Shown in pieces: positions 2,623 through 23,824 of a stretch of DNA of 44,484 nt. Position 1 is the first letter of the stretch. Every line of letters starts with the position of its first letter. Below the pieces are notes generated by a model. That model ran no database searches. It had not been told where the DNA came from and saw only the letters and a list, made by a program, of their open reading frames with translations. The DNA is from an uncultured Gammaproteobacteria bacterium. GTDB lineage: Bacteria > Patescibacteriota > Patescibacteriia > Magasanikbacterales > GWA2-37-8. Position numbers and translations under genes: made by a program. The stretch spans positions 1 through 44,484 of the forward strand of contig CAYZHG010000100.1 of NCBI GenBank assembly GCA_964477455.1, in the 5' to 3' direction.

Positions 2623-3528
2623 TTATTCCACTCCCCACTCCTTTTTTAGATCTTTGATACCAACTTCTAGTTTTACTTTAGGAATCCAACCGAGCGACTT
2701 CTTTGCCTTTGATATGTCCGCTTTAGCACGTTTCATTTCTCCTGATCTATCGGAAATCCGCACACTTTTACCACCGATATATTTTGCAATTTGATTTACG
2801 CTAGTCTCAACTCCTGATCCAATATTTATAGCATCACCATTTTTAAGTTTTGAATTCCAAGCCGCAATATTAGCATCCACCACATCACTCACATGGACAT
2901 AGTCTCTGGTCGCCTTTCCCGTTCCAACAATAGACATCGGCTTCCCTTCTTTTTTTAGCTGCAAAAAGGCTGGAATTACAAGTGGATATGAACCTTGTCC
3001 CGTTTTACGTGCACCATATACATTAAAATAACGCAAACAAACTGTTTCTATTCCATACAACGACGAAAACAATTGACAATACTTCTCTCCTATTAATTTA
3101 TGTAAACCATATGGACTTAATGGCAAAAAAGAACAATCTTCCTTAATCGGCATCGCCTGTACATTTCCATAAACAGCTCCAGATGAAGTAAAAATAACTT
3201 TTTTAACTTTATTTTTCCAAGCGGCAGTCAAAACATTTAATGTACCAGTCACGTTTATCTCATGAGTAGAAATCGGATCTTCTACTGAAATTTGCAACCT
3301 TGGATCGGCGGCTAAATGAAAAACAACTTCAACTCCTTTAAAGTATTTTGAAATCGTTTTGTAATCACGAATATCTGATTCAACAAATTTTGCCTTTTTA
3401 TTTACAAATTCCTTTTTACCAAGCATTAAATTATCTATCACGACTACCTGGTGACCGAGAGATACTAATTTGTCAGTTAAATGCGAACCAATAAAACCTG
3501 CCCCGCCAGTAACAACTATCTTTGACAT
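2623..3528 (-). CDS. NAD-dependent nucleotide-sugar epimerase (GalE-like extended SDR; candidate UDP-xylose or UDP-glucuronate 4-epimerase)
   Basis: MSKIVVTGGAGFIGSHL Rossmann motif, SPYGLHK (YxxxK), ~300 aa. It sits 1 nt after the stop of the UDP-glucose dehydrogenase gene. Confidence 0.85.
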   Translation of the reverse strand: MSKIVVTGGAGFIGSHLTDKLVSLGHQVVVIDNLMLGKKEFVNKKAKFVESDIRDYKTISKYFKGVEVVFHLAADPRLQISVEDPISTHEINVTGTLNVLTAAWKNKVKKVIFTSSGAVYGNVQAMPIKEDCSFLPLSPYGLHKLIGEKYCQLFSSLYGIETVCLRYFNVYGARKTGQGSYPLVIPAFLQLKKEGKPMSIVGTGKATRDYVHVSDVVDANIAAWNSKLKNGDAINIGSGVETSVNQIAKYIGGKSVRISDRSGEMKRAKADISKAKKSLGWIPKVKLEVGIKDLKKEWGVE

Positions 3529-3529
3529 A

Positions 3530-4936
3530 TTATTTTTTTCCTTTTAAAAATGGACTTCCCACTGCGATGATATCATAACCTAAATTCTGCAATTCATCAA
3601 ATTGAGCAGACAACATACGACGGCCGTCCATGATTAAATATGGAGCTGGACAATCAATTTTAATGATTTCACCAAGCGCTCTAAATTTAGGCCAATCAGT
3701 CAAAATCATACAGGCATCCGTTCCGGATAGTACTTCTTTTTCTGAACCATGATAACTTATTTTTTCAAACCTCTGATCTTTTGCTGGATCAAATAAGCTC
3801 ATAAACATTGGCATGGCAGCTGGATCATAAATTTTAATTTTTTCAACACCCTCATCTACTAAATGACGCACAATATCAATGGCTCCAGAATTACGAATAT
3901 CATTGGTATCTTGTTTGAAAGCCACTCCTAGAACAGCCACGCTCTTTTTTGACCAATTAAAGTTTGCTTCTCTTTTAGACCGACTAAAAAAATTATCGCG
4001 CTGAAAATTATTAGACATTAATGTTTGACGTACGTATGCCGCACTTACCCCAACCTCTTCCAATTGATGCGCTAAAGAAGCCGCATCTTTGATAAAACAA
4101 CTACCACCACAATAAACACTGTCGTAGAAACCCCAACTACCGATTCGATCATCACTAATCAAAACTTTTCTTAAATTTTCAAAATTAATTTTTGAAAAAG
4201 ATTCACATACTCGCCCAACTACATCAAAGGTAGTGGTAACCCTGTTGAACAATAAATAATTTGCTAACAATTTTCCAGCTGCGGCTTCCTGAGGATTGGT
4301 CTCCAAATATTTAATACTAGGGGAATTTAAAAATCTTGCATACACTTGACGCATAATTTTAAAATCCTCCTCCTTTTCAGCACCTACTACTACTCTATCT
4401 GGTCGTACCGAACCTTCGATAGCTTTTCCTTCAACAAGAAATTCCGGATTGGAAACTACACCGAAATTTTTGACACCATGTTCAAGCATAATTCGATTGG
4501 TCTCATCAATCATGTTGACTGGCACTGTACTCTTATTAATTATGACAATATATTTCTCTTGCAAACCATTATTCCTTTTTAATAAATTCTGCGCCAGCTT
4601 TTCAGCCGCAATGTAATAATAAGTCAAATCCGATTCACCTTCGGCACCATATTTTTCAGGTGTTGGCAAACACATAAAAATCGCATCAGTTTCATTTAGA
4701 TTGTCTATTACATTTTGATAATCGGCAGTAAACGAAATAGTATCTTTATTTTTTATCAACATTTCCCCCAAGCCATCTTCAAATAGACAGGATTCAATCA
4801 TCTCAATATTATTTGATCCCAGTTTTTTAATTTTTTCCTGATCAATATCGTATAATAAAACATCGTGTCCAGAATCAGCCATTACAGCCGCCGAACAGGT
4901 ACCAACAAATCCAGATCCAATATATAAAATTTTCAT
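3530..4936 (-). CDS. ugd: UDP-glucose 6-dehydrogenase family (nucleotide-sugar dehydrogenase)
   Basis: MKILYIGSGFVGTCSA (NAD-binding GxGxxG) and the catalytic-Cys motif GGSCFIKDAASL. The C-terminal UDP-binding region contains VAFKQDTNDIRNS. It is adjacent to a UDP-xylose synthase. Confidence 0.85.
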   Translation of the reverse strand: MKILYIGSGFVGTCSAAVMADSGHDVLLYDIDQEKIKKLGSNNIEMIESCLFEDGLGEMLIKNKDTISFTADYQNVIDNLNETDAIFMCLPTPEKYGAEGESDLTYYYIAAEKLAQNLLKRNNGLQEKYIVIINKSTVPVNMIDETNRIMLEHGVKNFGVVSNPEFLVEGKAIEGSVRPDRVVVGAEKEEDFKIMRQVYARFLNSPSIKYLETNPQEAAAGKLLANYLLFNRVTTTFDVVGRVCESFSKINFENLRKVLISDDRIGSWGFYDSVYCGGSCFIKDAASLAHQLEEVGVSAAYVRQTLMSNNFQRDNFFSRSKREANFNWSKKSVAVLGVAFKQDTNDIRNSGAIDIVRHLVDEGVEKIKIYDPAAMPMFMSLFDPAKDQRFEKISYHGSEKEVLSGTDACMILTDWPKFRALGEIIKIDCPAPYLIMDGRRMLSAQFDELQNLGYDIIAVGSPFLKGKK

Positions 4937-4942
4937 AATTTA

Positions 4943-5881
4943 TTAAATTACACTTTTAAAATATGCAATTGTTTTCAGAAGACCTTCCTGTAATTTTATT
5001 TTTGGCTCCCACTTTAAAATTTCCTTAGCCAAAGAAATATCAGGACATCGTCGTGTAGGATCGTCAACTGGCAGATCATTATAAACTAATTTACTTTTTG
5101 ATCCAGTCAGTTCAATTACTTTGTGAGCCAATTCACTAACTGTAAACTCGTCAGGATTACCCAAATTAATTGGCCCAACTGTATTTTCATCACTAGCCAT
5201 CATTTTTATAAATCCACCCACCAAATCATCTACATAACAAAAACTACGCGTTTGACTACCGTCGCCATAGATTGTAATATCCTCGCCTTTTAATGCTTGT
5301 ATTATAAAGTTTGAAACTACTCGTCCGTCATCGGGCGCCATGTTTGGACCATAAGTATTAAAAATTCTGACCACTTTAATTTTTAAATCATGAGTTCGAT
5401 AATAATCAAAAAATAAAGTCTCCGCACAGCGTTTACCTTCATCATAGCAGGCACGTGGACCGTCTGGATTTACATTTCCACGATAACTTTCTTTTTGAGG
5501 ATGTTCAATCGGATCGCCGTAAACTTCTGAAGTGGATGCCTGAAAAATTTTAGCATTTTTTGCACGTGCTAAACCCAGTATATTAATTACACCGACCGTA
5601 TTGGCTTTGATTGTTCGAATAGCATTGTTTTGATAGTGTACAGGCGAGGCTGGACAAGCTAAATTGTAAATTTCATCAATGCTTTCATCAATAAATAACG
5701 GATTAATAATGTCGTGTTCAATGAATTTAAAGTTGCTATTTCCTAAAAAAGGATTAATATTTTCTTTTGAGCTAGTCAAAAAATTATCTACACAAATAAT
5801 CCTATTTCCTTCGTCCAATAATCGTACACACAAATTCGAACCAACAAATCCAGCTCCTCCGGTAATTAAAATAGTTTTCAT
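4943..5881 (-). CDS. UDP-glucuronate decarboxylase (UDP-xylose synthase, UXS-type SDR)
   Basis: [83 protein letters not shown]. This is a near-textbook UXS signature. Confidence 0.9.
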
Positions 5882-6621
5882 ATAAAATATTGTTTAATTT
5901 TTGACAACAATCTTCTGATAATAAAAAAATGTGGCACCGTCAAACCGTTCTCTAACCAAGCTAATTTTAATTCATTCCAACCCTTTAAACGCTGTTTAAA
6001 ACCACTAGCACTAAATCCGCCTTCACGCATACAGACTAAAGTTTGATCTAAATATTTCACTACTATGTTTTTATTCAAAAACCTCAACATCAATTCATAG
6101 TCTGCAGCAATTTTAAATTTCAAATTAAAATTGCCAAAATTATCGTACAATGCTTTTCTTACAAAAAATGTTGGATGTGGCATTATCCAACCAGAAACTA
6201 ATTTTTTAACATTAAACTCTCCCGCCTTCCAATAACGAATACATTTCTTTGTATTATCTCTCTGAACATATTCAATATTCCCGTAGCAAGCATCGACTTT
6301 ATTTTTTTGAAAAACTTCCATTATATTTTTTAATACACTATCATTGGAAAAAAAATCATCCGAATTTAAAATTCCTATTATATCTCCTGATGCCAACCCA
6401 ACACCCTTATTCATGGCGTCATAGATACCTTTGTCTGGCTCGGAAATATACTTAGTTATTTTGTCTTTATATTTATTTATAATATCTAAAGTACCGTCTT
6501 TCGAATCACCGTCAATAATTATATACTCCAAAGAATCGCATTGCTGAGCAATGACGCTTTTTATAGTATCTTCAATAGTCTTTACGCTATTGAAACAAAC
6601 TGTAATTATTGATATTTTCAT
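5878..6621 (-). CDS. GT2-family glycosyltransferase
   Basis: [27 protein letters not shown]...[12 protein letters not shown]...NSDD. I chose the second Met (6621). The ORF-track start 6639 would overlap the upstream gene by 13 nt. Confidence 0.85.
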
Positions 6622-6626
6622 AACTT

Positions 6627-7664
6627 TTAAAAAAACCATTTAGCTACCGACAAAGCCCCTTGCTTCCATGGCACCCGATGAGAAACGCCAGATTTACCCT
6701 CAAAATTATCAAGGTTCGACAAATACCATTCATAATTACGAATTAGCGCCTGCTTATTAGAAAATTTTGGACTATATCCTAAAAATTTCTCTGCTTTTTC
6801 AATGGAAACAAAACTATCTTTACTTGCCGTTTCATAAACCCACTTATAAAGTGGTGACAATCTCATCATTTCTAATATGCGTAAACACCAAATCATGGGA
6901 GCCGCTGGAAAGCCGATTATTTTTTTACCAAATCCAGCTTTGTTGAGCACAGCTTGGTAATCTTCTTTCATGGTTGTAAAATCTTTAGCTCCAATATTAA
7001 ATATGTCATTCACCTTATCCTTTTCTAAAGTAGCACACAGATATATTGCTTCACACAAATCTTCGACATCCAATAGTTGATATCTATTTTTACCATCACC
7101 AATCATTGGAAAATTTTTACCATCTTTCGCCCAATCATAAAAAAGTGCAAACACACCGAGTCTCTCTGGACCGACAAAAGACTTAGGTCTGATTATAGAA
7201 ACGGATAAACCTTTTTTTTGATATTCCAAACAAACTTTTTCGGCTTGTATCTTTGCCTCTCCATAAGGACCCACTCCAATTAAATTGTCTGATTCAAATA
7301 GTGGATGGTGATCGGGAATCCCATAAACAGCTGTTGAAGAAATATGAATAAATCTTTGAACACTGTGCTTGAACGCACTCTCTACAACATTCGTGGTACC
7401 CTGAATATCTGTACTAAATATCTCTTCTTTTGTGTATAAAGGTAGTGCAGCAGCACAGTGCACCACAACATCAATTCCTTCCATGCATTTATCTACCATT
7501 TTACGATCTCGAATATCACCAAGCACAGCATCAATTTTATTTTTTTCAGGATAATCAAACTGAACAATATCCAAAGTTCTAACAGAGTGATTTCTTGCAA
7601 GTAAATAACGCGTTAAATTGATACCAAGAAATCCAGAACCTCCGCTTATTAAATATCTCGACAT
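6627..7664 (-). CDS. Extended-SDR NAD-dependent epimerase/dehydratase-family protein
   Basis: YLISGGSGFLGINLTRYLL, HCAA, SSTAVYG, catalytic YGEAK; 345 aa. It lies directly downstream of the UbiA-type gene. Confidence 0.8.
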   Translation of the reverse strand: MSRYLISGGSGFLGINLTRYLLARNHSVRTLDIVQFDYPEKNKIDAVLGDIRDRKMVDKCMEGIDVVVHCAAALPLYTKEEIFSTDIQGTTNVVESAFKHSVQRFIHISSTAVYGIPDHHPLFESDNLIGVGPYGEAKIQAEKVCLEYQKKGLSVSIIRPKSFVGPERLGVFALFYDWAKDGKNFPMIGDGKNRYQLLDVEDLCEAIYLCATLEKDKVNDIFNIGAKDFTTMKEDYQAVLNKAGFGKKIIGFPAAPMIWCLRILEMMRLSPLYKWVYETASKDSFVSIEKAEKFLGYSPKFSNKQALIRNYEWYLSNLDNFEGKSGVSHRVPWKQGALSVAKWFF

Positions 7665-7673
7665 ATATTATAA

Positions 7674-8519
7674 CTAAATATAAATTATGAAAAACATATA
7701 AATTACCCAACTAACAATACTACCAAAAACTATTTTATCAGCAAATATTAACTTTTCAGGATATTCAATTTCAGCTGACGAATATATCAAATATAAATAT
7801 CGAAACACACCCAGAACAACAAAAAAAATTGAATACACTACTAAATCGGGATGGTCACCCAAATGAAAACCTAGAATGCTGTAAAGACCATAAGACGCGA
7901 TCACCAAGCTACTAGAAACTGATAGTAATTGTCTTAAAAAATCATTACTATAATACTGCAAAACAACTCTTTTGTGAAGTTGACCTTGTTCACCTAGTCG
8001 TTTACCGATAATCACTAATAAACTAGCAAAAAAAACACACAGAATCAGCCAACTTGATATAGGTGTAGATGTAGCGAAACCACCTATCAATATCCTCAAT
8101 AAATAAAATACTGAGACAAGTAAAACATCAAAAACTACTATATGTTTAATTCTGTAGGAGTATATTAAATTTAAAAATACATAAATTAATAGAAGTGGAA
8201 TTGCTTTTGGAATAAAAATATAAGCCAAAATAATTCCGATAGAAAAAATAAAAGTAGCCATAAAAATAGCTGCTTTTATCGATATCTTACCAGAAGCGAT
8301 TGGACGATATTGTTTTTTGGGATGATTTTGATCAGTTTTTTTATCAAAAATATCATTGACTATATAAACTGTACTGGCAATGAAACAAAAAACCACAAAA
8401 GATAAAGATGCTTGCCAAATTTTATCCTTTCCAAAAAAATCTTGTGCAAAAAATATTGGCACAAAAACCAAGAAATTTTTAACCCATTGTTTAGGTCGTA
8501 ATAATGTTAAATAAGCCAT
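7674..8519 (-). CDS. UbiA-superfamily polyprenyl-phosphate phosphoribosyltransferase-like protein (DPPR-synthase-like)
   Basis: N-terminal LLRPKQWVKNFLVFVPIFFA motif, NDIFDKKTDQNHPKKQYRPIASG (NDxxDxxxD ... RPxxSG), and about 8 TM segments. Confidence 0.75.
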   Translation of the reverse strand: MAYLTLLRPKQWVKNFLVFVPIFFAQDFFGKDKIWQASLSFVVFCFIASTVYIVNDIFDKKTDQNHPKKQYRPIASGKISIKAAIFMATFIFSIGIILAYIFIPKAIPLLLIYVFLNLIYSYRIKHIVVFDVLLVSVFYLLRILIGGFATSTPISSWLILCVFFASLLVIIGKRLGEQGQLHKRVVLQYYSNDFLRQLLSVSSSLVIASYGLYSILGFHLGDHPDLVVYSIFFVVLGVFRYLYLIYSSAEIEYPEKLIFADKIVFGSIVSWVIYMFFIIYI

Positions 8520-10264
8520 ATATTTTTAACTAAGTAAAAAACCACATCATCAAACAAATAAATAACTTTAACTAAAAAACTATCATCATTAGATCTCAAT
8601 CTTCTAACCATAACAAAACGCGCACCAATCCTTATAGCAAAAAGGCCATCTGTTAAAAATTTATCACCAATTACCAAAAATGGTAAACTCCTATCGTTTT
8701 TAATAAATTTTAAGATTTTAACATTTGGTTTTTTGTGTGGTATGTTCAAACAAGCAACTCCTGTAGCCAGAGTAATTTTATCAAATCTTTCAAAATTATT
8801 GTTATTTGAACAAAAATAAATTTCGTTGGATTTAGTTAATTCAATAATTTTTTCCAATATTTTATCGTCAATAAAATGTTGGCCATCATTAGTCACCGTA
8901 CCATCGATATCCAAAAATATTAAATTATCATTACCAACTGTGTCGGAATTTAATTCACTGAAATTGTTTTTTAATACAACAAAACCATTTTTTAAAATTA
9001 CTCTTCTAAATTCAATTAAAAATAAAACTATCGGCAATAACAACGGTATATAATGTCTCTCATAAGCAAAACCTATCAAAAATGGCGCGGAATAGAAAAA
9101 TATAAATCCTAAAAATAATATTGCCAGCACTTTTAACTCTTTGACTTTACTTTTTAAAAAAAACAAAGATACTGCTAAAGTGAGAAAGAACAAAAATCTT
9201 TGTATCACCATGAAAAATGTACCAAAGTATTTCAAAACTCCATCATAACGCTTTCCTCCCCACTCGATTCCAAATGGTCTTACTTCAAAAAAGAACGTTC
9301 CGGTTTTTATAAATGCTGATTTTATAAAGATCGCTGGATTTTTTTTAATAAATTCTTTAGCTTTAACTGTGTAATAATTATCTAATTCCCATTCATTAGT
9401 CATATTAAGTGGTGCTTCTACCATACCTTTCTGATCTAGAATATCCAAATTATATTTAGGATAATATTGTAACGTGTATTGATTATTTCCCTTATACAAA
9501 TTCCACCCATTCCAGGAAGATGACATTGTAAACCGCCCACTATTAACATAATTAAAACTTGACCATAAAATTACAAACAAAAACAACAACAGATATTGAA
9601 TTATTAATGAACGCATTTCTCTATGGCGAATAAAATATAATAATGGCAAAAATAAAGATAAATAGGTTAGTGAACTTTTAATAGAAAACAACAAAATAAC
9701 CAAAAACCCAAAAACAACTGACTCTATATTTGTTTTTCCTTGGCCATTGCTATTTTGGTGAAATAACAATAAATAGGAAACTAATGCTAATATTATCATT
9801 ACATACGGCTCTTCGTAATCGAGATTAAATCCATGTAAAATAAACTGCGGGGTTATGAGTACAAAAAGAATTAATAACAAAGAGAAATAATTTAAATTTT
9901 TTGTTAATATATTTTTAAAAATATAAATCAACGATAAACCAACAATAATATTTTTTACAAATAACAGCACAACAAGTTTTGAAGATACAAATGACAGCAA
10001 GTACAAAAATAGTGGGACAAACGGAAAACGGTGGGCATGAAAACAAACGGTGGGACAAACTTCATATCGACCAGTACTAATCAGACTGGTTACTAATTCA
10101 CCAAAACCATAATACATATTGGATATACTCTTGCCTGACAAATGCAGATATTTAACTAACACAAAAGAAACTAACAATACATACAATAACATCACAATAT
10201 AAATATATGATGGTTTGAATAAAAGATTAATACGTTTTTTGATATTTATTAACGAAAAAATCAT
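8507..10264 (-). CDS. Fusion protein: polytopic GT-C-like membrane domain (aa ~1-430) + C-terminal HAD-IIIA (YqeG-like) phosphatase domain (aa ~445-585)
   Basis: More than 10 hydrophobic segments, then LIFLDIDGTVTNDG (DxDGT), HKKPN and VIGDKFLTDG (the GDxxxTD motif of HAD-IIIA). It overlaps the UbiA gene by 13 nt. Confidence 0.7.
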   Translation of the reverse strand: MIFSLINIKKRINLLFKPSYIYIVMLLYVLLVSFVLVKYLHLSGKSISNMYYGFGELVTSLISTGRYEVCPTVCFHAHRFPFVPLFLYLLSFVSSKLVVLLFVKNIIVGLSLIYIFKNILTKNLNYFSLLLILFVLITPQFILHGFNLDYEEPYVMIILALVSYLLLFHQNSNGQGKTNIESVVFGFLVILLFSIKSSLTYLSLFLPLLYFIRHREMRSLIIQYLLLFLFVILWSSFNYVNSGRFTMSSSWNGWNLYKGNNQYTLQYYPKYNLDILDQKGMVEAPLNMTNEWELDNYYTVKAKEFIKKNPAIFIKSAFIKTGTFFFEVRPFGIEWGGKRYDGVLKYFGTFFMVIQRFLFFLTLAVSLFFLKSKVKELKVLAILFLGFIFFYSAPFLIGFAYERHYIPLLLPIVLFLIEFRRVILKNGFVVLKNNFSELNSDTVGNDNLIFLDIDGTVTNDGQHFIDDKILEKIIELTKSNEIYFCSNNNNFERFDKITLATGVACLNIPHKKPNVKILKFIKNDRSLPFLVIGDKFLTDGLFAIRIGARFVMVRRLRSNDDSFLVKVIYLFDDVVFYLVKNIWLI

Positions 10265-11502
10265 ATTTTATTTTTTGAATCAATGACCTCCTGATATAAA
10301 TCGCAATATTGTTTAGAAACATTTTTTAAATCAAATTTCACCATCGCAGACTCTCTTATTGTATTAGAAAAAAAATCAAAGTTTTTTAATGACCAATTAA
10401 TTCCAACAGCTAAACTAGATGGATCAAATGATTTTGCCAACCAACCAGTTACTTTGTGTTGAATCATATCTGGCATGCCGCCTATATCAAATGCCACTAC
10501 TGGAATATTACAAGCCATAGCTTCAACTACCATATTTGATAAATTCTCTTGCAAAGATGGCATTACCAAAACATCCGCTGCGGAATATGCCGCCATTAAC
10601 AAATTTTCATTATTTATCTCGCCTAAATAATGCACTTTAAAATTTTTAATAACATCAGAATTATTTTTATTTTTTTTACCAAAAACTAATAACTCAAAAT
10701 CATTAGCTAACAAATAATCAAGTGACTGTAAGAAAAGATCGTAACCTTTTCTTTTGTCTTTATCAACTTGAACTGCACCAAATAGAACAATTTTTTTATC
10801 TAGAGGTAAATTTAATTTTTTTCTAGCAACTTGTTTACCAACTGGTTTAAAAAAATTAAAATCTAACCCATTTGGAATCACCCGAATATCTTTGCCTTTT
10901 AAAAGTGAACTACTACGAGCACACTCAGCCAACCAATTGCTTGGAGCAACAAAATGTATGTTTAAATCTTTCCAAGATTTTTCTTTTCTTTTCAAAATAT
11001 TATAAGATAAATCATTGCCATTGTTTGAACCTAATAATGGACAACTACCACATGATTCTTTAAAACGACCACAATTATTATCATAATGACACCCTCCTGT
11101 AAAAGCCCACATATCATGCATAGTCCAAATTATCGGCGATTTAAAACTAGCAAGTCCCTCTATATTTATAAAACCACTATTAATCCAATGTAAATTAATT
11201 ATATCTGGATTTAAAATATTAATTTTTTTTATCACTCTGGATGGAACTAAACCTACGGAAAAAATTTCTTTATTCCAACCTGGGTGTTTTAATAATATCA
11301 AATAATCTAATGCTTGTTTTAAGCGTGCAAAAATTTTACCCACTAATCCAGATTGGCCGAAAACATTTGTATCCTTAGATAATTTACGTAACACAAACAT
11401 GGAAGAGTCATTTCCTTTTTCTTTTAACCCCTGATGTAAACGATATGCCGCTCTTGCCGCTCCACCTCGTGTATCGTAAGTATTAATAATTGCCACCTTC
11501 AT
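10261..11502 (-). CDS. GT4-family (GT-B fold) glycosyltransferase
   Basis: MKVAIINTYDTRGGAARAAYRL N-terminus and the C-terminal EX7E region PSLQENLSNMVVEAMACNIPVVAFDIGGMPDMI. Confidence 0.85.
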   Translation of the reverse strand: MKVAIINTYDTRGGAARAAYRLHQGLKEKGNDSSMFVLRKLSKDTNVFGQSGLVGKIFARLKQALDYLILLKHPGWNKEIFSVGLVPSRVIKKINILNPDIINLHWINSGFINIEGLASFKSPIIWTMHDMWAFTGGCHYDNNCGRFKESCGSCPLLGSNNGNDLSYNILKRKEKSWKDLNIHFVAPSNWLAECARSSSLLKGKDIRVIPNGLDFNFFKPVGKQVARKKLNLPLDKKIVLFGAVQVDKDKRKGYDLFLQSLDYLLANDFELLVFGKKNKNNSDVIKNFKVHYLGEINNENLLMAAYSAADVLVMPSLQENLSNMVVEAMACNIPVVAFDIGGMPDMIQHKVTGWLAKSFDPSSLAVGINWSLKNFDFFSNTIRESAMVKFDLKNVSKQYCDLYQEVIDSKNKI

Positions 11503-11508
11503 ATATAA

Positions 11509-12468
11509 TTAAACTTTTTTTCTAAATAATAGAAATATTTTTTTTGCATATTTATAAAGGCCAACCTTCTTTAGTATCCATATATATACAAACCTAGAAG
11601 AAAAAAGACCGAACACTTTTCTGTTTGTAAATTCGTCAGCATCTACATTTCGCACAATTGTACTAGGATGCACTAAAGGAAAAGATAGCTCTTGCCTCTC
11701 TATTATCATTTCTTTTATTATTATATTTGTATGTGTCGCTTGATTACCAAAACCGATATTTTTTACCAAATTCACATTTGGAATACAAGAAAGACCGGAA
11801 TTATATAGAACACAATAAAACCAAGAAAAATCCCATGTATCAACTCTGCCAAAAATAACGTCTTTAAAATTACTAATCCAATAGAGTTGATCACCAGGTG
11901 CTTTAAAATATTTATTAATAATATCTTTTTTTTCAAATTCAGAAAAAGTCGACATCGTAAGATCATATTTTTTCCAAGCTCGACGCCAAGTTGCCCAACC
12001 CCAAACATGATTAAACATAGAAAAATAATAACTCGCCTCACCTCGTTTTGTGCCATTTTGAAAATTACTTCCACCAATATGCATGACCTGTTCATTATCA
12101 CGATATTTGTCCAGCAACTCCTCACAAAAATAAAAAAACGATTGATCTGGAAGACAATCATCTTCTAAGACAATCCCTTCTTCTACATTATAAAAAAACC
12201 AATTAATTGCCGAACTAACCGCCAATTTACAACCTAAATTTTTATCTCTATATAATGTATGCACCTCACACGGCCAATCAATATTTTTTGTCACAAAATC
12301 ACGCACCGCTATTACCTGCTCACCCTCTCCTTGTCTTTCTAAACGTGGACCATCACTAGCAACAAAAAGTTTTGCTGGTTTAATTTTTTTTATTTCTGAA
12401 AAAACTAGATCAGTCGTGTCTAATCGATTAAATATGAGAAACAAAATTGGTACATTAAATAATTCCAT
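11509..12468 (-). CDS. GT-A fold glycosyltransferase, GNT-I/HlpA-like
   Basis: VPILFLIFNRLDTT...FVASDGPR...KNLGCKLAVSSAINWFF...GIVLEDDCLP (EDD). Start set at Met17 (12468) so that it follows the upstream stop at 12476. Confidence 0.6.
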   Translation of the reverse strand: MELFNVPILFLIFNRLDTTDLVFSEIKKIKPAKLFVASDGPRLERQGEGEQVIAVRDFVTKNIDWPCEVHTLYRDKNLGCKLAVSSAINWFFYNVEEGIVLEDDCLPDQSFFYFCEELLDKYRDNEQVMHIGGSNFQNGTKRGEASYYFSMFNHVWGWATWRRAWKKYDLTMSTFSEFEKKDIINKYFKAPGDQLYWISNFKDVIFGRVDTWDFSWFYCVLYNSGLSCIPNVNLVKNIGFGNQATHTNIIIKEMIIERQELSFPLVHPSTIVRNVDADEFTNRKVFGLFSSRFVYIWILKKVGLYKYAKKIFLLFRKKV

Positions 12469-12475
12469 ATATTTA

Positions 12476-13255
12476 TTATCTATAATTAGAATTTTTTTTC
12501 TCCAAAACCCAATCAATAAAATCAGCGGCGGCCAACTGAAATTTATTTAAGTATCGCGATCTAACGGTTTTTTTATTTTGAATTGTTCGCTGACGATTTT
12601 GAATATTAGATGATTCTGACCCAAAATGTACACAGTAATTACTTACTATTCTATCAAAAAATAACCAACTTGTCTTATCTTTAATTCTAAACCACAGATC
12701 AGAATCCATTGCAGACTTTAGTTTTTCATCAAAATAACCAAATTTATTAAATACGTCTTTTTTGATAAAGACACCTTGATGAGGTATGTAATTGTAATAA
12801 TTTAATAATTTCTTTCCAAATATAAATTTGCTATTGTTTTGATAAATTTTCTTTGATGGAAAAATCCCTATACTTTTATTTGATTCTTCCACAACATTAA
12901 TTTTACCATAAATCCAATCCAGCTTATTTTTAGACAAAAAATAACATGCATCAGCCAAAACATTGTTGTCATACAGGCTATCATCAGAATGAAGGTGAAT
13001 GATATATTCTCCACTAGATCTTTTTATACCCTCGTTCATAGCACTAGAAATTCCCTTCGGTTCAATTTGAAAAAATTTAACAACATCAGGATGCTTAATC
13101 TGATAATTCTTAATTATTTCTGCTGTCCCATCAGTAGAATAACCATCTATAAAAATATGCTCAAAATCAGTAAAAGACTGATTTGAAACACTGCTTATAT
13201 TACGCTCTATAAATTTTATACTATTATACGTACAAGTAATAATTGAAAATTTCAT
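12476..13255 (-). CDS. GT2-family glycosyltransferase
   Basis: MKFSIITCTYNSIKFIERNISSVSNQSFTDFEHIFIDGYSTDGT...HLHSDD. Confidence 0.85.
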   Translation of the reverse strand: MKFSIITCTYNSIKFIERNISSVSNQSFTDFEHIFIDGYSTDGTAEIIKNYQIKHPDVVKFFQIEPKGISSAMNEGIKRSSGEYIIHLHSDDSLYDNNVLADACYFLSKNKLDWIYGKINVVEESNKSIGIFPSKKIYQNNSKFIFGKKLLNYYNYIPHQGVFIKKDVFNKFGYFDEKLKSAMDSDLWFRIKDKTSWLFFDRIVSNYCVHFGSESSNIQNRQRTIQNKKTVRSRYLNKFQLAAADFIDWVLEKKNSNYR

Positions 13256-13260
13256 TTGGA

Positions 13261-14184
13261 TTAAGATAATTTTTTTTTACAAAACCTTAATAACAAATAA
13301 AGATTATTTATTATTTTATTATTACGGTTTGAAATAATTTTAAGTATTATTCTTCTTTTAATTCTATAAAATTTCATCTTTGCAACTAAGCCAAAAGACA
13401 TGTATTGTTTATTGAAAGTCAATATATTATTATAATGATTAATGACTAATTGCTCTGTAAAAAACTCATGTTTTATCTTATCACTTGGTCCCCACGAAAC
13501 ATTGTCTCCCCTATACATAACGATAGGACTAGCGATAATTACAAAAGAAAAATCAGAATTTGTATAATAAATCGGTAAATGAAATGGATAAAGGTCAAGC
13601 GGAGAATTATATTTTTCTATAATAAACAAACCATTAATAAATATATCTCTTTTAATGATGTAATCTGACAAGAAAGTAAAGAAAAAATCATTGCAATAAT
13701 AATGGTTATTTATAAAATCAAATAAGTCTTTCTTGTCTTTTAAAAATAGGTTTTTATTAACACCAAAATTATTAGTAGAAATAATCTTATCGTCTATAAA
13801 AGTACTTGTGTTACAGAAAATAACGTCACTTTTATATTTTTCAATAGCACCAATAACGGCCGATAGTGAGTTTGTATTATGTTTATCGTCATCTGAAAAA
13901 AACCAAATATAATCACCGTTAGCTAAAGTTCCAACCTTAATTTGTCCACCCGCAATACCTCGTTTTTCCGTATCTACACAATATCTAATATTTTTATATT
14001 TATCTGAGAATACTCCAACAACATCACTAGTTTTATCTTGACTAATATTATCCAAAATGACCACTTCAACCTTATTCATGAGTGCTTTATCTTCAAACTG
14101 GGTTACTATACTTTCAAGACATTCTCTCAAAAAATCTGCCCTATTATATGTTGGTATACAAATACTAATTAAAGGTTTTTCCAT
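13261..14184 (-). CDS. GT2-family glycosyltransferase
   Basis: ISICIPTYNRADFLRECLESIVTQ...VVILDNISQDKT...FFSDDD. Confidence 0.8.
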   Translation of the reverse strand: MEKPLISICIPTYNRADFLRECLESIVTQFEDKALMNKVEVVILDNISQDKTSDVVGVFSDKYKNIRYCVDTEKRGIAGGQIKVGTLANGDYIWFFSDDDKHNTNSLSAVIGAIEKYKSDVIFCNTSTFIDDKIISTNNFGVNKNLFLKDKKDLFDFINNHYYCNDFFFTFLSDYIIKRDIFINGLFIIEKYNSPLDLYPFHLPIYYTNSDFSFVIIASPIVMYRGDNVSWGPSDKIKHEFFTEQLVINHYNNILTFNKQYMSFGLVAKMKFYRIKRRIILKIISNRNNKIINNLYLLLRFCKKKLS

Positions 14185-21515: not shown

Positions 21516-22745
21516 TTAACCCAATATTCTTTTACCATTATGTGGCAAATTTATCAGACCAAAATTGTTAAATTCATTATCAATACTCCAGTCCTCTATG
21601 ATACCAAAGCTGACCAAATAAGTACCCCAAATCCAACTACCAGACAACCCATATCCACCGATTGCTAATGTGTAATCTCCAGGCCGTAGAAAAAAAGCAG
21701 GAACCTTAACCTGAGAGGAAAAATTTCCTTTTGGAAGCAATTCTCCATATTGTGTATCATGCAAAGAAAACAATCGAATGTCGTCTTTAAATACGGAAAA
21801 GGTTATCCTGAAACTTGGAATGTCTTTTTCACAATATCCTTTAACGGAAAATTTTATTTCTTCTGATGGAGGTAAATTTATTTCTTGATTTGATAAATCA
21901 TTTACATAAACTTCAGAAAATTGTAATTCAGAAACTAAAGTCCCATTAAAAGATTTAGAGCTGAGTTTTCCTTGCTGAGAACCATTTTTAATATACAATT
22001 TGATAGCTTCATCTGTGTCACCAGCAAAAACTACCTTTCCATCATCTAATAAAATTGTGCGAGTACACAACTGTTTAATAGCACCCATATTATGACTAAC
22101 AAACAGTACAGTTCTACCATCATTATTTGTAACTTCCTGCATCTTACCTAAACATTTCTTTTGAAATTCAATATCACCAACTGCCAACACTTCATCTATG
22201 ACCAAAATGTCTGGTTCTAGGTGGGCGGCTACAGCAAACGCCAAACGCACATACATACCAGAAGAATATCTTTTTACTGGCGTATCTAAAAATTCTCCTA
22301 TACCAGAGAAATTAACTATATCATCAAACTTTTCTTTGATTTCCTGCTTACTCATTCCAAGCATCGAACCATTTAAAAAAATATTTTCTCTTCCAGTAAG
22401 TTCTGGATGAAAACCAGTGCCGACCTCGAGAAGACTCCCCACTCTACCATTTAATATAATTTCACCTTCAGTTGGCGGAGTGATACGGGAAAGAATTTTT
22501 AATAATGTACTTTTACCAGCACCATTTCTACCTATAATACCCAAAACCTCACCTTTTTCTACTGTAAAACTAACATCCTTTAATGCCAAAAACATATCAC
22601 TATCGATTGGCTTAGAAAAAATATTTTTAAACCAACTAAATGGAGATTTTATAAAAGAGGATAACAAATCCCTCAGAGCCATATAGCTTTGTCGTTCACC
22701 CATCCTATAACTTTTACTAATATTTTTTACTTCAATTATTGACAT
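21516..22745 (-). CDS. wzt: Polysaccharide/teichoic-acid ABC exporter ATP-binding protein (Wzt/TagH type) with ~160-aa C-terminal extension
   Basis: Walker A GRNGAGKSTLLK, signature YSSGMYVRLAFAVA, Walker B ILVIDEVLAVGD, H-loop VSHN. About 160 residues of beta-rich sequence follow the NBD. Confidence 0.9.
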   Translation of the reverse strand: MSIIEVKNISKSYRMGERQSYMALRDLLSSFIKSPFSWFKNIFSKPIDSDMFLALKDVSFTVEKGEVLGIIGRNGAGKSTLLKILSRITPPTEGEIILNGRVGSLLEVGTGFHPELTGRENIFLNGSMLGMSKQEIKEKFDDIVNFSGIGEFLDTPVKRYSSGMYVRLAFAVAAHLEPDILVIDEVLAVGDIEFQKKCLGKMQEVTNNDGRTVLFVSHNMGAIKQLCTRTILLDDGKVVFAGDTDEAIKLYIKNGSQQGKLSSKSFNGTLVSELQFSEVYVNDLSNQEINLPPSEEIKFSVKGYCEKDIPSFRITFSVFKDDIRLFSLHDTQYGELLPKGNFSSQVKVPAFFLRPGDYTLAIGGYGLSGSWIWGTYLVSFGIIEDWSIDNEFNNFGLINLPHNGKRILG

Positions 22746-22752
22746 AAAAAAA

Positions 22753-23571
22753 TTATATTACATCCGCGAAGTATCTTTCTACTTTTCTAAAATAGATTCC
22801 CCCTATCAGACAGTACACAAAGGCTGATAAAGCTGAGACAGCAAACAATAGCCAATCGATCTCTCTTCCTCCTAACAGACCTGCTCTGGCAGCGTCTACG
22901 ACTCCAGCCATAGGGTTCAACCCAAGAAGCCAGCGATATTTTGGACTCATTATACTGACAGGATATATTACTGGAGTAACAAAAATTAATAATTGAATGA
23001 AAAAAGGTAAAACATAACGAACATCGCGATACTTAACATTCAAAGATGCAAACAGCAACCCAATTCCAAAGGACGAAATAAAACTTAACAAAATTAATAA
23101 CGGACAAAGAAGTACCCCAATAAGCGATGGCGCAAAATGATAATACGCCATAATAAAAATTAAAATAACGCTGGCAACAAAGAAATCAACCAAATGAGTC
23201 ATAATTGAAGAAACTGGCAATATAATTCTAGGAAAATAGATCTTTGTTAAAATTCTTTCATTATCCACAAAAGAACCGCTCACTGATGCTAAACTGGCAG
23301 AAAAGAAAGTCCAAAAAACTAATCCAGAATAAACAAAAAGTGGATATGGAATTCCATCTGATGGCATTTTTGCTAATTTACCAAAAAATATAGAGAATAC
23401 AACCATGGTAACTAACGGTTGAAAAATTGCCCAACCTACCCCAACTACCGTTTGTTTGTATTTTACTTTGATATCTTTCCAAGTGAAGAAATAAAAAAGT
23501 TCACGAAAATCCCAGATTTCTTTCCAGTCAATTTTCCACCATTGATTCTTCGGTCGAATGATTATTTCCAT
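22753..23571 (-). CDS. wzm: ABC-2 type polysaccharide exporter permease (Wzm/TagG)
   Basis: WKDIKVKYKQTVVGVGWAIFQPL (ABC-2 N-terminal motif) and 6 TM segments. Start set at Met17 (23571), 7 nt after the HTH gene stop. Confidence 0.85.
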   Translation of the reverse strand: MEIIIRPKNQWWKIDWKEIWDFRELFYFFTWKDIKVKYKQTVVGVGWAIFQPLVTMVVFSIFFGKLAKMPSDGIPYPLFVYSGLVFWTFFSASLASVSGSFVDNERILTKIYFPRIILPVSSIMTHLVDFFVASVILIFIMAYYHFAPSLIGVLLCPLLILLSFISSFGIGLLFASLNVKYRDVRYVLPFFIQLLIFVTPVIYPVSIMSPKYRWLLGLNPMAGVVDAARAGLLGGREIDWLLFAVSALSAFVYCLIGGIYFRKVERYFADVI

Positions 23572-23578
23572 AAAATAA

Positions 23579-23824
23579 TTACCAATTACTAGTTTTTTCA
23601 ATAGTCTTTTTTTTGACATTTTGATAAAGATCGGTCGCCTTGGTATCTATTTCTGGTGAAAGCATACGCAAAAGCTCATGCCCTAAAACGCGATATTGTT
23701 TACCGATTTTATTAGTCCTTATTAAACCGCTCTTTATCAGCCTTTTAACAGTACTTTTGCTAACCTTAAGCAAACTTTCAACTTCATGGGTGGTATAAAC
23801 TTCGTTTGGTTTTATTTCAGACAT
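23579..23824 (-). CDS. Small helix-turn-helix DNA-binding protein (excisionase/MerR-like HTH_17 family)
   Basis: VYTTHEVESLLKVSKSTVKRLIKSGLIRTNKIGKQYRV is the typical HTH_17 pattern. Start set at Met17 (23824) because a consensus promoter occupies the ORF-track N-terminal extension. Confidence 0.72.
   Translation of the reverse strand: MSEIKPNEVYTTHEVESLLKVSKSTVKRLIKSGLIRTNKIGKQYRVLGHELLRMLSPEIDTKATDLYQNVKKKTIEKTSNW

What the first reader, a model, noticed from the sequence alone, without database searches (positions are those of the whole stretch)
6627..10264. Polyprenyl-phosphate pentose-donor-like module: UbiA DPPR-synthase-like gene translationally coupled to a GT-C::HAD-phosphatase fusion, followed by an extended SDR
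The 281-aa UbiA protein has the N-terminal RPKQWVKN motif and NDIFDKKTD...RPIASG. I associate both with decaprenyl-phosphate 5-phosphoribosyltransferases (Rv3806c type), the first enzyme of the mycobacterial arabinofuranose-donor pathway. That pathway next needs a phosphatase and then C2 epimerisation (DprE1/DprE2).

Here the preceding gene overlaps the UbiA gene by 13 nt. It carries a HAD-IIIA phosphatase domain (DIDGT, KKPN, GDKFLTDG) fused to a polytopic GT-C-like domain. This would place a phosphatase and a putative lipid-sugar-using transferase on one polypeptide. An extended SDR (YGEAK) follows, but no DprE1-like flavoenzyme is present.

This looks like a rewired lipid-linked ribofuranose or arabinofuranose donor pathway in a low-GC, apparently non-actinobacterial genome.
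Basis: partly seen in the sequence, partly recalled or inferred. Interest (0 to 1): 0.7.

Follow-up and report, generated by a model that had tools for sequence, protein, structure and literature searches.

The report
Lipid-linked pentofuranose donor and transfer module
This stretch of a candidate-phyla-radiation bacterium encodes what looks like a pathway that builds a five-carbon sugar on a membrane lipid carrier and adds it to a cell-surface glycan, a kind of pathway first described in 2024, here with an unusual domain fusion and an uncharacterised, very highly conserved epimerase-like enzyme.

Summary
In detail: the genes, motifs and 13-nt overlap are all present on the minus strand at the stated coordinates.

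- **UbiA protein.** It is a decaprenyl-phosphate phosphoribosyltransferase-type enzyme (PPPRS). Its only PDB sequence match is Rv3806c, and it keeps 10 of the 12 PRPP-contact residues.
- **585-aa protein.** A roughly 430-aa, 10-helix domain is modelled with high confidence, and its only consistent structural neighbours are GT-C glycosyltransferases. It is followed by a small HAD phosphatase with all catalytic motifs intact, predicted to be cytoplasmic.
- **Conservation.** HAD + UbiA + extended SDR recurs in five distinct CPR loci. The UbiA–SDR pair also occurs in haloarchaea and actinomycetes.
- **Known kind.** This is not a new kind of system. It matches the "three-component" pentofuranose system with an auxiliary SDR epimerase described by Kelly et al. 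(PNAS 2024).
- **What differs here.**
  - The HAD subfamily is different, and it is fused to the GT-C-like protein. That partner is variable: in relatives the same HAD stands alone, or is fused to UbiA or to a GT2.
  - The GT-C-like family is undescribed.
  - No flippase gene is present in the window.
  - The host is a CPR bacterium.
- **Unresolved.** The pentose delivered (Ribf, Xylf or Araf) cannot be decided. The published precedent for an SDR-only system is Xylf, not Araf.

Verdict: a new variant of a known kind, of moderate interest.

The parts
8960..10264 (-). N-terminal polytopic membrane domain (residues 1-435) of the 585-aa protein. It is GT-C-like and is the putative extracytoplasmic pentofuranosyltransferase.
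   Evidence: - AF2 gives mean pLDDT 94.3 and pTM 0.92 for this domain alone.
- The top Foldseek PDB hits are all GT-C enzymes: STT3, Pmt4, ArnT, then AftB, ALG3, AftA and EmbC. TM-scores normalised to the query are 0.45-0.49 and probabilities 0.94-1.00, but E-values are only 0.03-0.5.
- The family has 462 representatives at E<=1e-3, mostly free-standing proteins of 420-450 aa.
- E152 is invariant. E151, R79, P81, K196, Y268, P269, E291, W292, R403 and H404 are nearly invariant, and all lie on one face.
- A 34%-identical homologue sits at the end of a UbiA-DprE1-DprE2-HAD cluster (L001).
8507..8959 (-). C-terminal small capless HAD phosphatase domain (residues 436-585). It is the putative polyprenyl-P-ribose-5-phosphate 5'-phosphatase and is predicted to be cytoplasmic.
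   Evidence: - PF09419 scores 23.4 bits, above its cutoff, and TIGR01668 YqeG gives E=4.7e-8.
- The catalytic motifs are invariant in 12 orthologues: D452-x-D454-G-T456, S486-N487, K512-P513, and G533-D534-K535...D539.
- Orthologues at 49-52% identity are always beside UbiA. They are free-standing in L009 and L017, fused to the UbiA N-terminus in L011, and fused to a GT2 in L022.
7674..8519 (-). UbiA-family polyprenyl-phosphate 5-phosphoribosyltransferase (PPPRS / DPPR-synthase type), 281 aa.
   Evidence: - NCBIfam NF008977 scores 203.6 bits (cutoff 234) and NF008978 scores 198.7 bits (cutoff 207). The best model that is not a decaprenyl-phosphate phosphoribosyltransferase or the related HAD::UbiA fusion type scores 71 bits.
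- The only PDB match is Rv3806c, 8j8j, at E=1.2e-36.
- The Rv3806c PRPP/Mg contact residues R22, K28, Y70, N73, D77, K87, R90, Y138, K143 and Y157 are identical here (R8, K14, Y52, N55, D59, K69, R72, Y120, K125, Y139). Q135 becomes N117. K208 is not aligned.
6627..7664 (-). Extended SDR, 345 aa. It is the putative NAD-dependent epimerase acting on the lipid-linked pentofuranose.
   Evidence: - PF01370 gives E=1.2e-40 and 3Beta_HSD gives E=4.9e-23. No NCBIfam equivalog is reached; the best is HpnA at 105 of the 368 bits required.
- It carries GGSGFLG, SSTAVYG and YGEAK, and lacks the dehydratase/decarboxylase Glu.
- It lies directly after UbiA in L007, L009, L011, L017 and L022.
- It lies beside UbiA in haloarchaeal, Streptomyces and Nonomuraea records.
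- It is 74-79% identical across CPR phyla and Roseiflexus.
10261..11502 (-). GT4 glycosyltransferase. Its stop overlaps the start of the 585-aa gene by 4 nt, and it is kept with the module in the closest relative.
   Evidence: Pfam Glyco_trans_1_4 and Glycos_transf_1. It is 69% identical and syntenic in L007. The junction was read.
5878..6639 (-). GT2 glycosyltransferase (253 aa) overlapping the SDR stop by 13 nt.
   Evidence: PF00535 gives E=7.6e-27. The orthologue directly follows the SDR in L007 (74% identity) and L022 (64% identity). It is present but not adjacent in L009.
2623..5881 (-). UDP-sugar supply genes: a UXS-like decarboxylase (4943-5881), a UDP-glucose dehydrogenase (3530-4936) and a GalE-like epimerase (2623-3528). 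These are context, not core.
   Evidence: Pfam and NCBIfam hits. The block is kept in L007 but absent from L009, L011 and L017.
21516..23619 (-). ABC-2 permease and ATPase (Wzm/Wzt-like). This is the likely exporter of the glycan that the module decorates (context).
   Evidence: PF01061 gives E=2e-20 and PF00005 gives E=8e-25.

Best explanation
The four domains form a pathway for making and using a lipid-linked pentofuranose, of the kind defined by Kelly et al. 2024.

1. **Inferred from homology.** The UbiA enzyme transfers ribose-5-phosphate from PRPP onto a polyprenyl phosphate at the cytoplasmic face of the membrane.
2. **Inferred from conserved gene context and intact motifs.** The small HAD domain, held at the membrane by its fusion partner, removes the 5-phosphate. 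This gives polyprenyl-P-ribofuranose.
3. **Inferred; the position of epimerisation is unknown.** The extended SDR uses bound NAD to epimerise the lipid-linked sugar through a keto intermediate. The published precedent is C3, giving xylofuranose. C2, giving arabinofuranose, is not excluded.
4. **Not identified.** The donor is flipped across the membrane. No flippase gene is present in the window.
5. **Inferred from fold, fusion and one related cluster.** The GT-C-like membrane domain of the 585-aa protein transfers the pentofuranose onto a cell-surface glycan made by the surrounding ABC-transporter-dependent cluster.

The overlapping stop and start codons (4, 13 and 13 nt) suggest co-translation of the set. 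The GT-C::HAD fusion probably arose because the HAD gene sits directly upstream of UbiA and merges with whichever gene flanks it.
For: **UbiA**
- It scores on the decaprenyl-phosphate phosphoribosyltransferase models at E=4e-60 and 1e-58.
- Its only PDB match is Rv3806c.
- Ten of 12 PRPP-contact residues are identical, including the three that hold the 5'-phosphate.

**HAD**
- The catalytic motifs are invariant.
- Orthologues are always next to UbiA, in four different architectures.
- An N-terminal HAD on the PPPRS was shown experimentally to be the 5'-phosphatase in C. youngae ORF15.

**SDR**
- UbiA-SDR adjacency is seen in five distinct CPR loci plus haloarchaeal, Streptomyces and Nonomuraea records.
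- Nine of the closest UbiA homologues share a contig length with an SDR family member.
- A single SDR (ORF13) converts the Ribf donor to the Xylf donor in C. youngae O2.

**GT-C-like domain**
- Fold-search hits are GT-C enzymes only.
- Five of 81 family members give weak PMT_2 Pfam hits.
- A homologue closes a UbiA/DprE1/DprE2/HAD cluster in L001.
- Other GT-C genes follow the SDR in L011 and L014.

**Topology**
- There are 10 TM helices and a K/R-rich N-terminus. All conserved residues lie on the opposite face from the HAD.

**Context**
- The surrounding cluster has a Wzm/Wzt ABC transporter and many GTs. The Citrobacter prototype has the same setting.
Against: - No enzyme here has been assayed.
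- The UbiA protein falls just below both NCBIfam equivalog cutoffs.
- Foldseek E-values for the GT-C assignment are weak (>=8e-3) and TM-scores are below 0.5. Four of 81 family members also give weak Wzy_C hits.
- Two other members of the membrane-domain family are not near any UbiA gene (L002 and L021).
- The HAD is fused to a GT2 in L022, so the fusion by itself does not tie the GT-C-like domain to this donor.
- No SMR, MATE, GtrA or LPG-synthase-TM type flippase is found in the window.
- In Roseiflexus the 74%-identical SDR sits beside LCP and MurJ genes, with no UbiA within 8 kb.
- The HAD is not detectably similar to the ORF15-type HAD of the Rhizobium system.
Confidence: 0.6

Rival explanations
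1. Donor synthesis is as described, but the GT-C-like domain is not the enzyme that uses it. The fusion would be an accident of operon compaction. The membrane domain would use another lipid-linked donor, or act as a polymerase or ligase. One of the other polytopic proteins in the window, such as the PMT_2 protein at 29306-31033, would transfer the pentofuranose.
For: - The same HAD is fused to a GT2 in L022 and to UbiA in L011, and stands free in L009 and L017.
- Family members in L002 and L021 lack a UbiA neighbour.
- Four of 81 family members give weak Wzy_C hits.
- The window holds at least five more large polytopic proteins.
Against: - The L001 homologue closes a complete UbiA/DprE1/DprE2/HAD cluster.
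- The fusion and its synteny are kept at 70% identity in L007.
- Fold hits are GT-C enzymes, not WaaL or Wzy.
Confidence: 0.22
2. The SDR is a nucleotide-sugar enzyme that works with the downstream UXS, UGDH and GalE-like genes (UDP-xylose or UDP-arabinose metabolism). It would be unrelated to the UbiA product, and the module would deliver plain ribofuranose.
For: - Pfam and PDB neighbours are mostly nucleotide-sugar epimerases and dehydratases.
- UXS, UGDH and GalE-like genes follow in the same operon.
- The Roseiflexus orthologue has no UbiA neighbour.
Against: - The SDR stays glued to UbiA in loci that lack UXS and UGDH (L009, L011, L017, L014, L015).
- It reaches no nucleotide-sugar equivalog model. 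The best NCBIfam hit is HpnA, followed by a dTDP-glucose dehydratase model and LegB, then the lipid-acting OleD. Lipid-acting SDRs also rank high elsewhere: 3Beta_HSD is second in Pfam and NSDHL is third in the PDB search.
Confidence: 0.1
3. The UbiA protein is an aromatic, quinone or haem prenyltransferase, and the HAD is a housekeeping phosphatase of the YqeG or PGP-phosphatase type.
For: The general UbiA Pfam hit. JGI labels some homologues '4-hydroxybenzoate polyprenyltransferase'. The HAD's best models are YqeG and PGP phosphatase.
Against: - The UbiA, CyoE and MenA-type models score 160 bits or more lower than the decaprenyl-phosphate phosphoribosyltransferase models.
- No other UbiA-family structure is matched in the PDB.
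- The phosphoribose-specific contact residues are conserved.
- The locus is a glycan cluster.
Confidence: 0.02

Closest known systems
[quoted passage not shown] 2024, PMC11127046)
   Same: - A PRPP-dependent UbiA-type polyprenyl-P phosphoribosyltransferase.
- A HAD phosphatase physically tied to the pathway.
- A single extended SDR with the TGxxGxxG and YxxxK motifs and no DprE1/E2.
- A polytopic GT-C-type protein.
- Location inside an ABC-transporter-dependent glycan cluster (searches compared).
   Different: - The HAD is a roughly 140-aa capless YqeG/GEP4-like domain. It is not detectably similar to the ORF15-type HAD of the Rhizobium example.
- It is fused to the C-terminus of the GT-C-like protein rather than the N-terminus of the PPPRS.
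- No MATE or SMR transporter gene is in the window. A Peregrinibacteria relative has an EamA/SMR-like gene.
- The GT-C-like domain shows no BLAST-level similarity to the 658-aa membrane protein of the Rhizobium system.
Mycobacterial decaprenyl-phosphoarabinose pathway (Rv3806c, Rv3807c, DprE1, DprE2, Emb/Aft GT-C enzymes)
   Same: The first enzyme matches Rv3806c over 268 residues with PRPP contacts conserved. The overall logic is the same: the lipid-linked pentofuranose is made inside the cell and used by a GT-C enzyme outside.
   Different: - The phosphatase is a HAD, not the PAP2-type Rv3807c.
- There is no DprE1 flavoenzyme and no DprE2 classical SDR.
- One extended SDR is present instead.
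- The carrier lipid and the final sugar are unknown.
Canonical DprE1/DprE2-containing clusters outside Actinobacteria (e.g. Chondrinema litorale plasmid; metagenomic locus L001)
   Same: A PPPRS of the decaprenyl-phosphate phosphoribosyltransferase type followed by GT-C genes. L001 also carries a homologue of the window's membrane domain.
   Different: Those clusters carry an FAD-binding oxidoreductase plus a short SDR. The window carries neither.
YqeG / GEP4 (PGP phosphatase) HAD-IIIA phosphatases
   Same: These are the best profile matches for the HAD domain. The size is small and the domain is capless. By general knowledge, GEP4 dephosphorylates a lipid head-group phosphomonoester, which is chemically analogous.
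   Different: The TIGR01668 score of 32.7 bits is far below the 89.1-bit cutoff. The gene context is a glycan cluster, and the conserved partner is UbiA.

Membership tests
Decaprenyl/polyprenyl-phosphate 5-phosphoribosyltransferase (Rv3806c / PPPRS clade of the UbiA superfamily) | Scores above the curated NCBIfam equivalog cutoff | tested here: not met
   NF008977 scores 203.6 bits against a cutoff of 234. NF008978 scores 198.7 bits against 207. These are narrowly below, but far above every other UbiA subfamily (<=71 bits).
Decaprenyl/polyprenyl-phosphate 5-phosphoribosyltransferase (Rv3806c / PPPRS clade of the UbiA superfamily) | NDxxDxxxD loop and the PRPP / 5'-phosphate contact residues defined in the Rv3806c structure | tested here: met
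   R8, K14, Y52, N55, D59, K69, R72, Y120, K125 and Y139 are identical to R22, K28, Y70, N73, D77, K87, R90, Y138, K143 and Y157. Q135 becomes N117. K208 is unaligned. N55, D56, D59 and D63 are invariant in 37 relatives.
Decaprenyl/polyprenyl-phosphate 5-phosphoribosyltransferase (Rv3806c / PPPRS clade of the UbiA superfamily) | Transfers ribose-5-P from PRPP to a polyprenyl phosphate | not testable with these tools
   This needs a membrane assay with PRPP and farnesyl-P or undecaprenyl-P.
Three-component pentofuranose addition system (Kelly et al. 2024) | PPPRS with an associated 5'-phosphatase | tested here: met
   UbiA plus a HAD with intact motifs, conserved as neighbours in five distinct CPR loci. 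The HAD subfamily differs from that of the Rhizobium example.
Three-component pentofuranose addition system (Kelly et al. 2024) | Dedicated small transporter (MATE/SMR type) for the lipid-linked donor | tested here: not met
   The window has no SMR-, EamA-, or LPG-synthase-TM-like gene by tblastn. ORF and TM screening found no credible small multi-TM ORF near the module. One is present in relative L017.
Three-component pentofuranose addition system (Kelly et al. 2024) | GT-C fold glycosyltransferase, specifically CAZy GT136 | tested here: inconclusive
   GT-C is the only consistent fold match, but the statistics are weak.
Three-component pentofuranose addition system (Kelly et al. 2024) | Auxiliary SDR epimerase homologous to ORF13 (Ribf to Xylf) | not tested
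   The ORF13 sequence (MH325884.1) is not held in any accessible collection. The window SDR has the same motifs. It is 33% identical to one SDR and 26% to the other in the Rhizobium CCGE531 system.
Mycobacterial DPA pathway | DprE1 (FAD oxidase) and DprE2 (classical SDR reductase) | tested here: not met
   No FAD_binding_4 or adh_short protein among 38 scanned ORFs. No tblastn hit with L001 DprE1-like or DprE2-like queries.
GT-C glycosyltransferases | 8-13 TM helices, an extracytoplasmic loop after TM1 with short helices, and conserved acidic residues on the outer face | tested here: met
   The model has 10 TM helices. EL1 (residues 40-96) carries two short helices. Invariant E152 and near-invariant E151 lie at the outer end of TM3/4, and all conserved residues are on one face.
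GT-C glycosyltransferases | Significant structural or sequence similarity to established GT-C families | tested here: inconclusive
   - Foldseek best E-values are 8e-3 (full-length model) and 2.7e-2 (domain model), with TM-scores normalised to the query of 0.45-0.49.
- Five of 81 relatives give weak PMT_2 hits.
- hhalign against the window's own PMT_2 protein gives E=1.3e-3 with probability 18%.
HAD superfamily phosphatases | Motifs I-IV (DxDxT, S/T, K, GDxxxD) | tested here: met
   D452, D454, T456, S486/N487, K512, D534 and D539 are invariant or nearly invariant in 12 orthologues. PF09419 scores above its cutoff.
Extended SDR epimerases (GalE-like) | GxxGxxG NAD site, S/T-Y-K triad, and absence of the dehydratase or decarboxylase acid/base residue | tested here: met
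   GGSGFLG, SSTAVYG and YGEAK are read in the translation. The window's own UXS-like protein has STSEVYG at the equivalent position. Epimerase activity itself is not testable here.

The most novel reading that the evidence does not exclude
The very highly conserved 345-aa extended SDR would be a single-enzyme polyprenyl-phosphoribose 2-epimerase. It is 74-79% identical from CPR phyla to Roseiflexus, and 49% identical to haloarchaeal copies. It would replace the two-enzyme DprE1/DprE2 step, so that CPR bacteria, Chloroflexi and haloarchaea would make a decaprenyl-phosphoarabinose-like Araf donor by a route not known in mycobacteria. The GT-C::HAD fusion would mark a physical donor-synthesis and transfer complex.
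Probability: 0.2. Interest if true: 0.7.

Novelty: new variant of a known kind. Interest (0 to 1): 0.4.

Why it matters
If the reading is right, the PRPP-to-lipid-linked-pentofuranose route extends beyond its known hosts. It has been established in Citrobacter and in mycobacteria, and inferred in Pseudomonas. This would add the candidate phyla radiation, and through the UbiA–SDR pair, haloarchaea and actinomycetes.

It also points to two uncharacterised protein families worth testing:
- a compact GT-C-like family of about 430 aa with 462 representative clusters;
- an extended SDR that is unusually conserved across phyla and almost always sits next to the phosphoribosyltransferase.

Knowing which epimer that SDR makes would allow pentofuranose content (Ribf, Xylf or Araf) to be predicted from genomes of uncultured organisms. 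The practical value is for annotation. The UbiA gene is currently labelled 'hypothetical protein' or '4-hydroxybenzoate polyprenyltransferase', and the fusion protein is labelled 'YqeG' or is unnamed.

Tried and rejected
- **Genome-contig scan with the UbiA protein.** It returned only one unrelated Bathyarchaeota locus (L008), so no genome-level survey came from it.
- **Metagenome-contig scan with the UbiA alignment.** The survey therefore rests on exact-protein look-ups and plasmid tblastn.
- **PDB sequence search with the whole 585-aa protein.** No hit at E<=1.
- **PDB profile search with the HAD alignment.** Only generic HAD hits, best E=5e-4.
- **hhalign of the membrane-domain family against other GT-C proteins.** The match to the window's PMT_2 protein was marginal. 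There was no match to the haloarchaeal 'DolP-mannose mannosyltransferase' or to the L011 PMT_2/DUF6798 protein.
- **hhalign of the CPR HAD family against the N-terminal HAD of the Rhizobium CCGE531 HAD::UbiA protein.** Only motif I aligned, so the two are different HAD subfamilies.
- **Attempts to obtain C. youngae ORF13 and ORF12 sequences.** The supplement holds the alignments only as images.
  - The phage record cited by the paper is not in the phage collection.
  - The B. multivorans system has no window-type SDR.
- **Crude positive-inside count over all loops.** It was not discriminating: 7 K/R residues on each side. The topology call rests on the even helix count, the basic N-terminus, and the one-sided clustering of conserved residues.
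- **tRNA and Rfam scans of the window.** Both were empty.

Full report
**Observation.**
- Downstream follow a UXS-like decarboxylase, a UDP-glucose dehydrogenase and a GalE-like epimerase.
- The junctions were read directly:
  - GT4 and the 585-aa gene overlap by 4 nt (ATGA).
  - The 585-aa gene and UbiA overlap by 13 nt.
  - UbiA and the SDR are separated by 9 nt.
  - The SDR and GT2 overlap by 13 nt.
- The window comes from Candidatus Magasanikbacteria bacterium RIFOXYD2_FULL_36, a CPR bacterium. GC content is about 27-37%.

**The UbiA protein.**
- It scores 203.6 and 198.7 bits on two NCBIfam decaprenyl-phosphate phosphoribosyltransferase models. This is just under their cutoffs of 234 and 207.
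- The best model of another type, apart from the related HAD::UbiA fusion model, scores 71 bits. UbiA scores 42 bits and CyoE 39.5 bits.
- Against all PDB sequences, the only match at E<=0.01 is M. tuberculosis Rv3806c (8j8j, E=1.2e-36, 268 aligned residues). No other UbiA-superfamily structure is hit.
- The Rv3806c structure paper lists the PRPP and Mg contact residues. Mapped through the alignment:
  - R22, K28, Y70, N73, D77, K87, R90, Y138, K143 and Y157 are identical in the window protein (R8, K14, Y52, N55, D59, K69, R72, Y120, K125, Y139).
  - Q135 becomes N117.
  - Only K208 has no aligned counterpart.
- K28, Y70 and Y157 hold the 5'-phosphate, a feature the paper says is not shared with prenyl-transferring UbiA enzymes.

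**The 585-aa protein.**
- Residues about 445-570 match PF09419 (PGP phosphatase, 23.4 bits against a 20.4-bit cutoff). More weakly, they match YqeG-type HAD-IIIA models.
- In an alignment of 12 orthologous domains, all four HAD motifs are invariant or nearly so: D452-x-D454-G-T456, S486-N487, K512-P513, and G533-D534-K535...D539.
- Residues 1-435 have no Pfam hit and no PDB sequence match.
- An exhaustive search of 1.84 billion representatives found 462 relatives at E<=1e-3. Nearly all are free-standing membrane proteins of 420-450 aa.
- AF2 models the N-terminal domain very confidently (mean pLDDT 94.3, pTM 0.92).
- Foldseek against the PDB puts only GT-C enzymes at the top: STT3 from several OST structures, Pmt4 and ArnT, then AftB, ALG3, AftA and EmbC.
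  - TM-scores normalised to the query are 0.45-0.49 and probabilities 0.94-1.00.
  - E-values are only 0.03-0.5, or 8e-3 at best with the full-length model.
  - I therefore call the domain 'GT-C-like' with moderate confidence.
- The model has 10 membrane helices, so both termini are on the same side.
  - The N-terminus carries four K/R residues and no acidic residue.
  - All conserved family residues fall in loops 1, 3, 5, 7 and 9 or at the adjacent helix ends. These include invariant E152 and near-invariant E151, R79, P81, K196, Y268, P269, E291, W292, R403 and H404.
  - This places the HAD in the cytoplasm and the presumed active face outside, as expected for a GT-C enzyme.

**Conservation.** The full-length fusion is rare. 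Only three 90%-identity clusters carry it, at 100, 93 and 71% identity. HAD + UbiA + SDR, however, recurs:
- **L007** (71%-identity relative) keeps GT4, the fusion, UbiA, SDR, GT2, UXS, UGDH and GalE, while upstream genes differ.
- **L009** has a free-standing 154-aa HAD overlapping UbiA, then the SDR.
- **L011/L012** have a HAD::UbiA fusion, then the SDR, then a PMT_2/DUF6798 membrane protein.
- **L017** (Peregrinibacteria) has UbiA, the SDR, a 122-aa EamA/SMR-like protein and a free-standing HAD.
- **L022** has the HAD fused to the C-terminus of a DPM1-like GT2, overlapping UbiA, then the SDR.

The HADs in these loci are 49-52% identical to the window's. The HAD therefore always accompanies UbiA, while its fusion partner varies. 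This supports the HAD–UbiA functional link, and it weakens the fusion as evidence for a HAD–GT-C link.

Independent support for the membrane domain comes from L001. There a 34%-identical homologue ends a cluster encoding UbiA, a DprE1-like FAD enzyme, a GMC oxidoreductase, a DprE2-like short SDR and a HAD::LPG-synthase-TM protein. Two other family members (L002, L021) have no UbiA neighbour.

**The SDR.**
- It has the GxxGxxG NAD site, SSTAVYG and YGEAK. It lacks the Glu that the window's own UXS-like protein carries at the equivalent position (STSEVYG).
- It reaches no NCBIfam equivalog. Lipid-acting SDRs rank high among its hits: HpnA is the best NCBIfam hit and OleD the fourth, 3-beta-HSD is second in Pfam, and NSDHL is third in the PDB search. 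Nucleotide-sugar enzymes fill most of the other top places.
- It is strikingly conserved. The best 120 database hits are 74-100% identical and include Gracilibacteria, Peregrinibacteria, Paceibacteria and Roseiflexus.
- Nine of the closest UbiA homologues share a contig length with one of these SDRs.
- In plasmid records, the SDR lies beside a PPPRS of the decaprenyl-phosphate phosphoribosyltransferase type in several lineages:
  - Natronococcus AD-5, Haloterrigena and Halostagnicola (47-50% identity);
  - Streptomyces sp. SAT1 (39% identity);
  - Nonomuraea (39% identity).
- In those loci a PHP or an endonuclease/exonuclease/phosphatase-family protein stands where the HAD would be.
- In Roseiflexus the 74%-identical SDR sits beside ValRS, an LCP ligase and MurJ, with no UbiA within 8 kb. 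This remains unexplained.

**Comparison with what is known.** Kelly et al. 2024 (PMC11127046) showed the following in Citrobacter youngae O1/O2:
- ORF15 is an N-terminal HAD 'PRP' domain fused to a UbiA-type PPPRS. It makes polyprenyl-P-ribofuranose from PRPP.
- ORF14 is the presumed flippase.
- ORF12, a GT-C enzyme that founded CAZy family GT136, adds the sugar outside the cell.
- A single cytoplasmic SDR, ORF13, switches the side chain from Ribf to its C3 epimer Xylf.

Their survey found ORF13 homologues with Xylf glycans and DprE1/E2 homologues with Araf glycans. It also noted examples with the phosphatase encoded separately.

The window module follows this design. It differs in five ways:
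- The HAD is a different, smaller subfamily.
- The HAD is attached to the GT-C-like protein.
- The membrane-domain family is undescribed.
- No transporter gene is present.
- The host is a CPR bacterium.

Other variants seen here fit the same landscape:
- A Bacteroidota plasmid has decaprenyl-phosphate phosphoribosyltransferase + DprE1 + DprE2 + GT39.
- A Lactococcus plasmid has decaprenyl-phosphate phosphoribosyltransferase + HAD-IB + GtrA and no epimerase.

The held literature contains no description of the CPR or haloarchaeal version.

**Mechanism and uncertainty.**
- PRPP-dependent synthesis of polyprenyl-P-ribose-5-P followed by HAD dephosphorylation is the best-supported part.
- Epimerisation by the SDR is inferred from gene linkage and from the ORF13 precedent. 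Whether it acts at C3 (Xylf), at C2 (Araf), or does something else cannot be decided here, because the ORF13 sequence was not obtainable.
- Use of the donor by the GT-C-like domain is plausible but is the weakest link.
- The surrounding cluster contains a Wzm/Wzt ABC transporter, many GT2 and GT4 genes, and several other polytopic proteins. This fits decoration of an exported cell-surface polymer.

**Verdict.** The system belongs to a kind published in 2024. I rate it a new variant of a known kind, with moderate interest (0.4). That interest lies mainly in the uncharacterised, highly conserved SDR and in the compact GT-C-like family.

Noticed in passing
window 6627-7664; L016 8001-9044: The extended SDR is 74-79% identical between several CPR phyla and Roseiflexus (Chloroflexi). 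This is far more conserved than its UbiA partner, which is about 50% identical. In Roseiflexus it lies beside ValRS, an LCP ligase and MurJ, with no UbiA within 8 kb.
   Followed up: partly
L022 7841-9004; L009 8772-9236; L011 10001-11278; L017 10253-10696: The same small HAD domain occurs in four architectures: free-standing, fused to the UbiA N-terminus, fused to the C-terminus of the GT-C-like protein, and fused to the C-terminus of a DPM1-like GT2. It is always next to UbiA, and in all but L017 directly upstream of it. This suggests repeated fusion with whichever gene flanks it.
   Followed up: yes
L014 (Haloterrigena plasmid) 5135-12053; L015 (Streptomyces SAT1 plasmid) 7959-14946; L020 (Lactococcus plasmid) 6584-9703: Around UbiA-type phosphoribosyltransferases the phosphatase appears to be replaced non-orthologously: PHP domain, endonuclease/exonuclease/phosphatase family, or HAD-IB. 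An LPG-synthase-type membrane domain or GtrA recurs as a possible flippase.
   Followed up: partly
window 37055-39310, with 36004-37068, 34272-35105 and 39240-39890: A 751-aa protein combines about 11 membrane helices with a phosphoribulokinase/uridine-kinase domain (E=1.7e-40). Its neighbours are a class II aldolase, a nucleotidyltransferase and a second HAD (HAD_2). This may be a separate sugar-activation route within the same cluster.
   Followed up: no
window 25092-26741, 27440-29296, 31766-33637: Three large polytopic membrane proteins (549, 618 and 623 aa; 13-15 predicted helices) have no Pfam hit. They are interleaved with a small GT2 and a methyltransferase. They are possible additional GT-C-like enzymes or polymerases.
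   Followed up: no
L001 3525-5102; L013 10773-12296: A GMC-family oxidoreductase recurs inside UbiA-type phosphoribosyltransferase clusters that also carry DprE1/E2-like or SDR genes. Its role in pentofuranose donor chemistry is unexplained.
   Followed up: no
window 11509-12516: The mechanical ORF (335 aa, TTG start) is longer than the gene called on identical public contigs (319 aa; L003 7797-8756). The true start is probably downstream. The ORFs at 11772-12161 and 11887-12168 lie inside it and are probably spurious.
   Followed up: no
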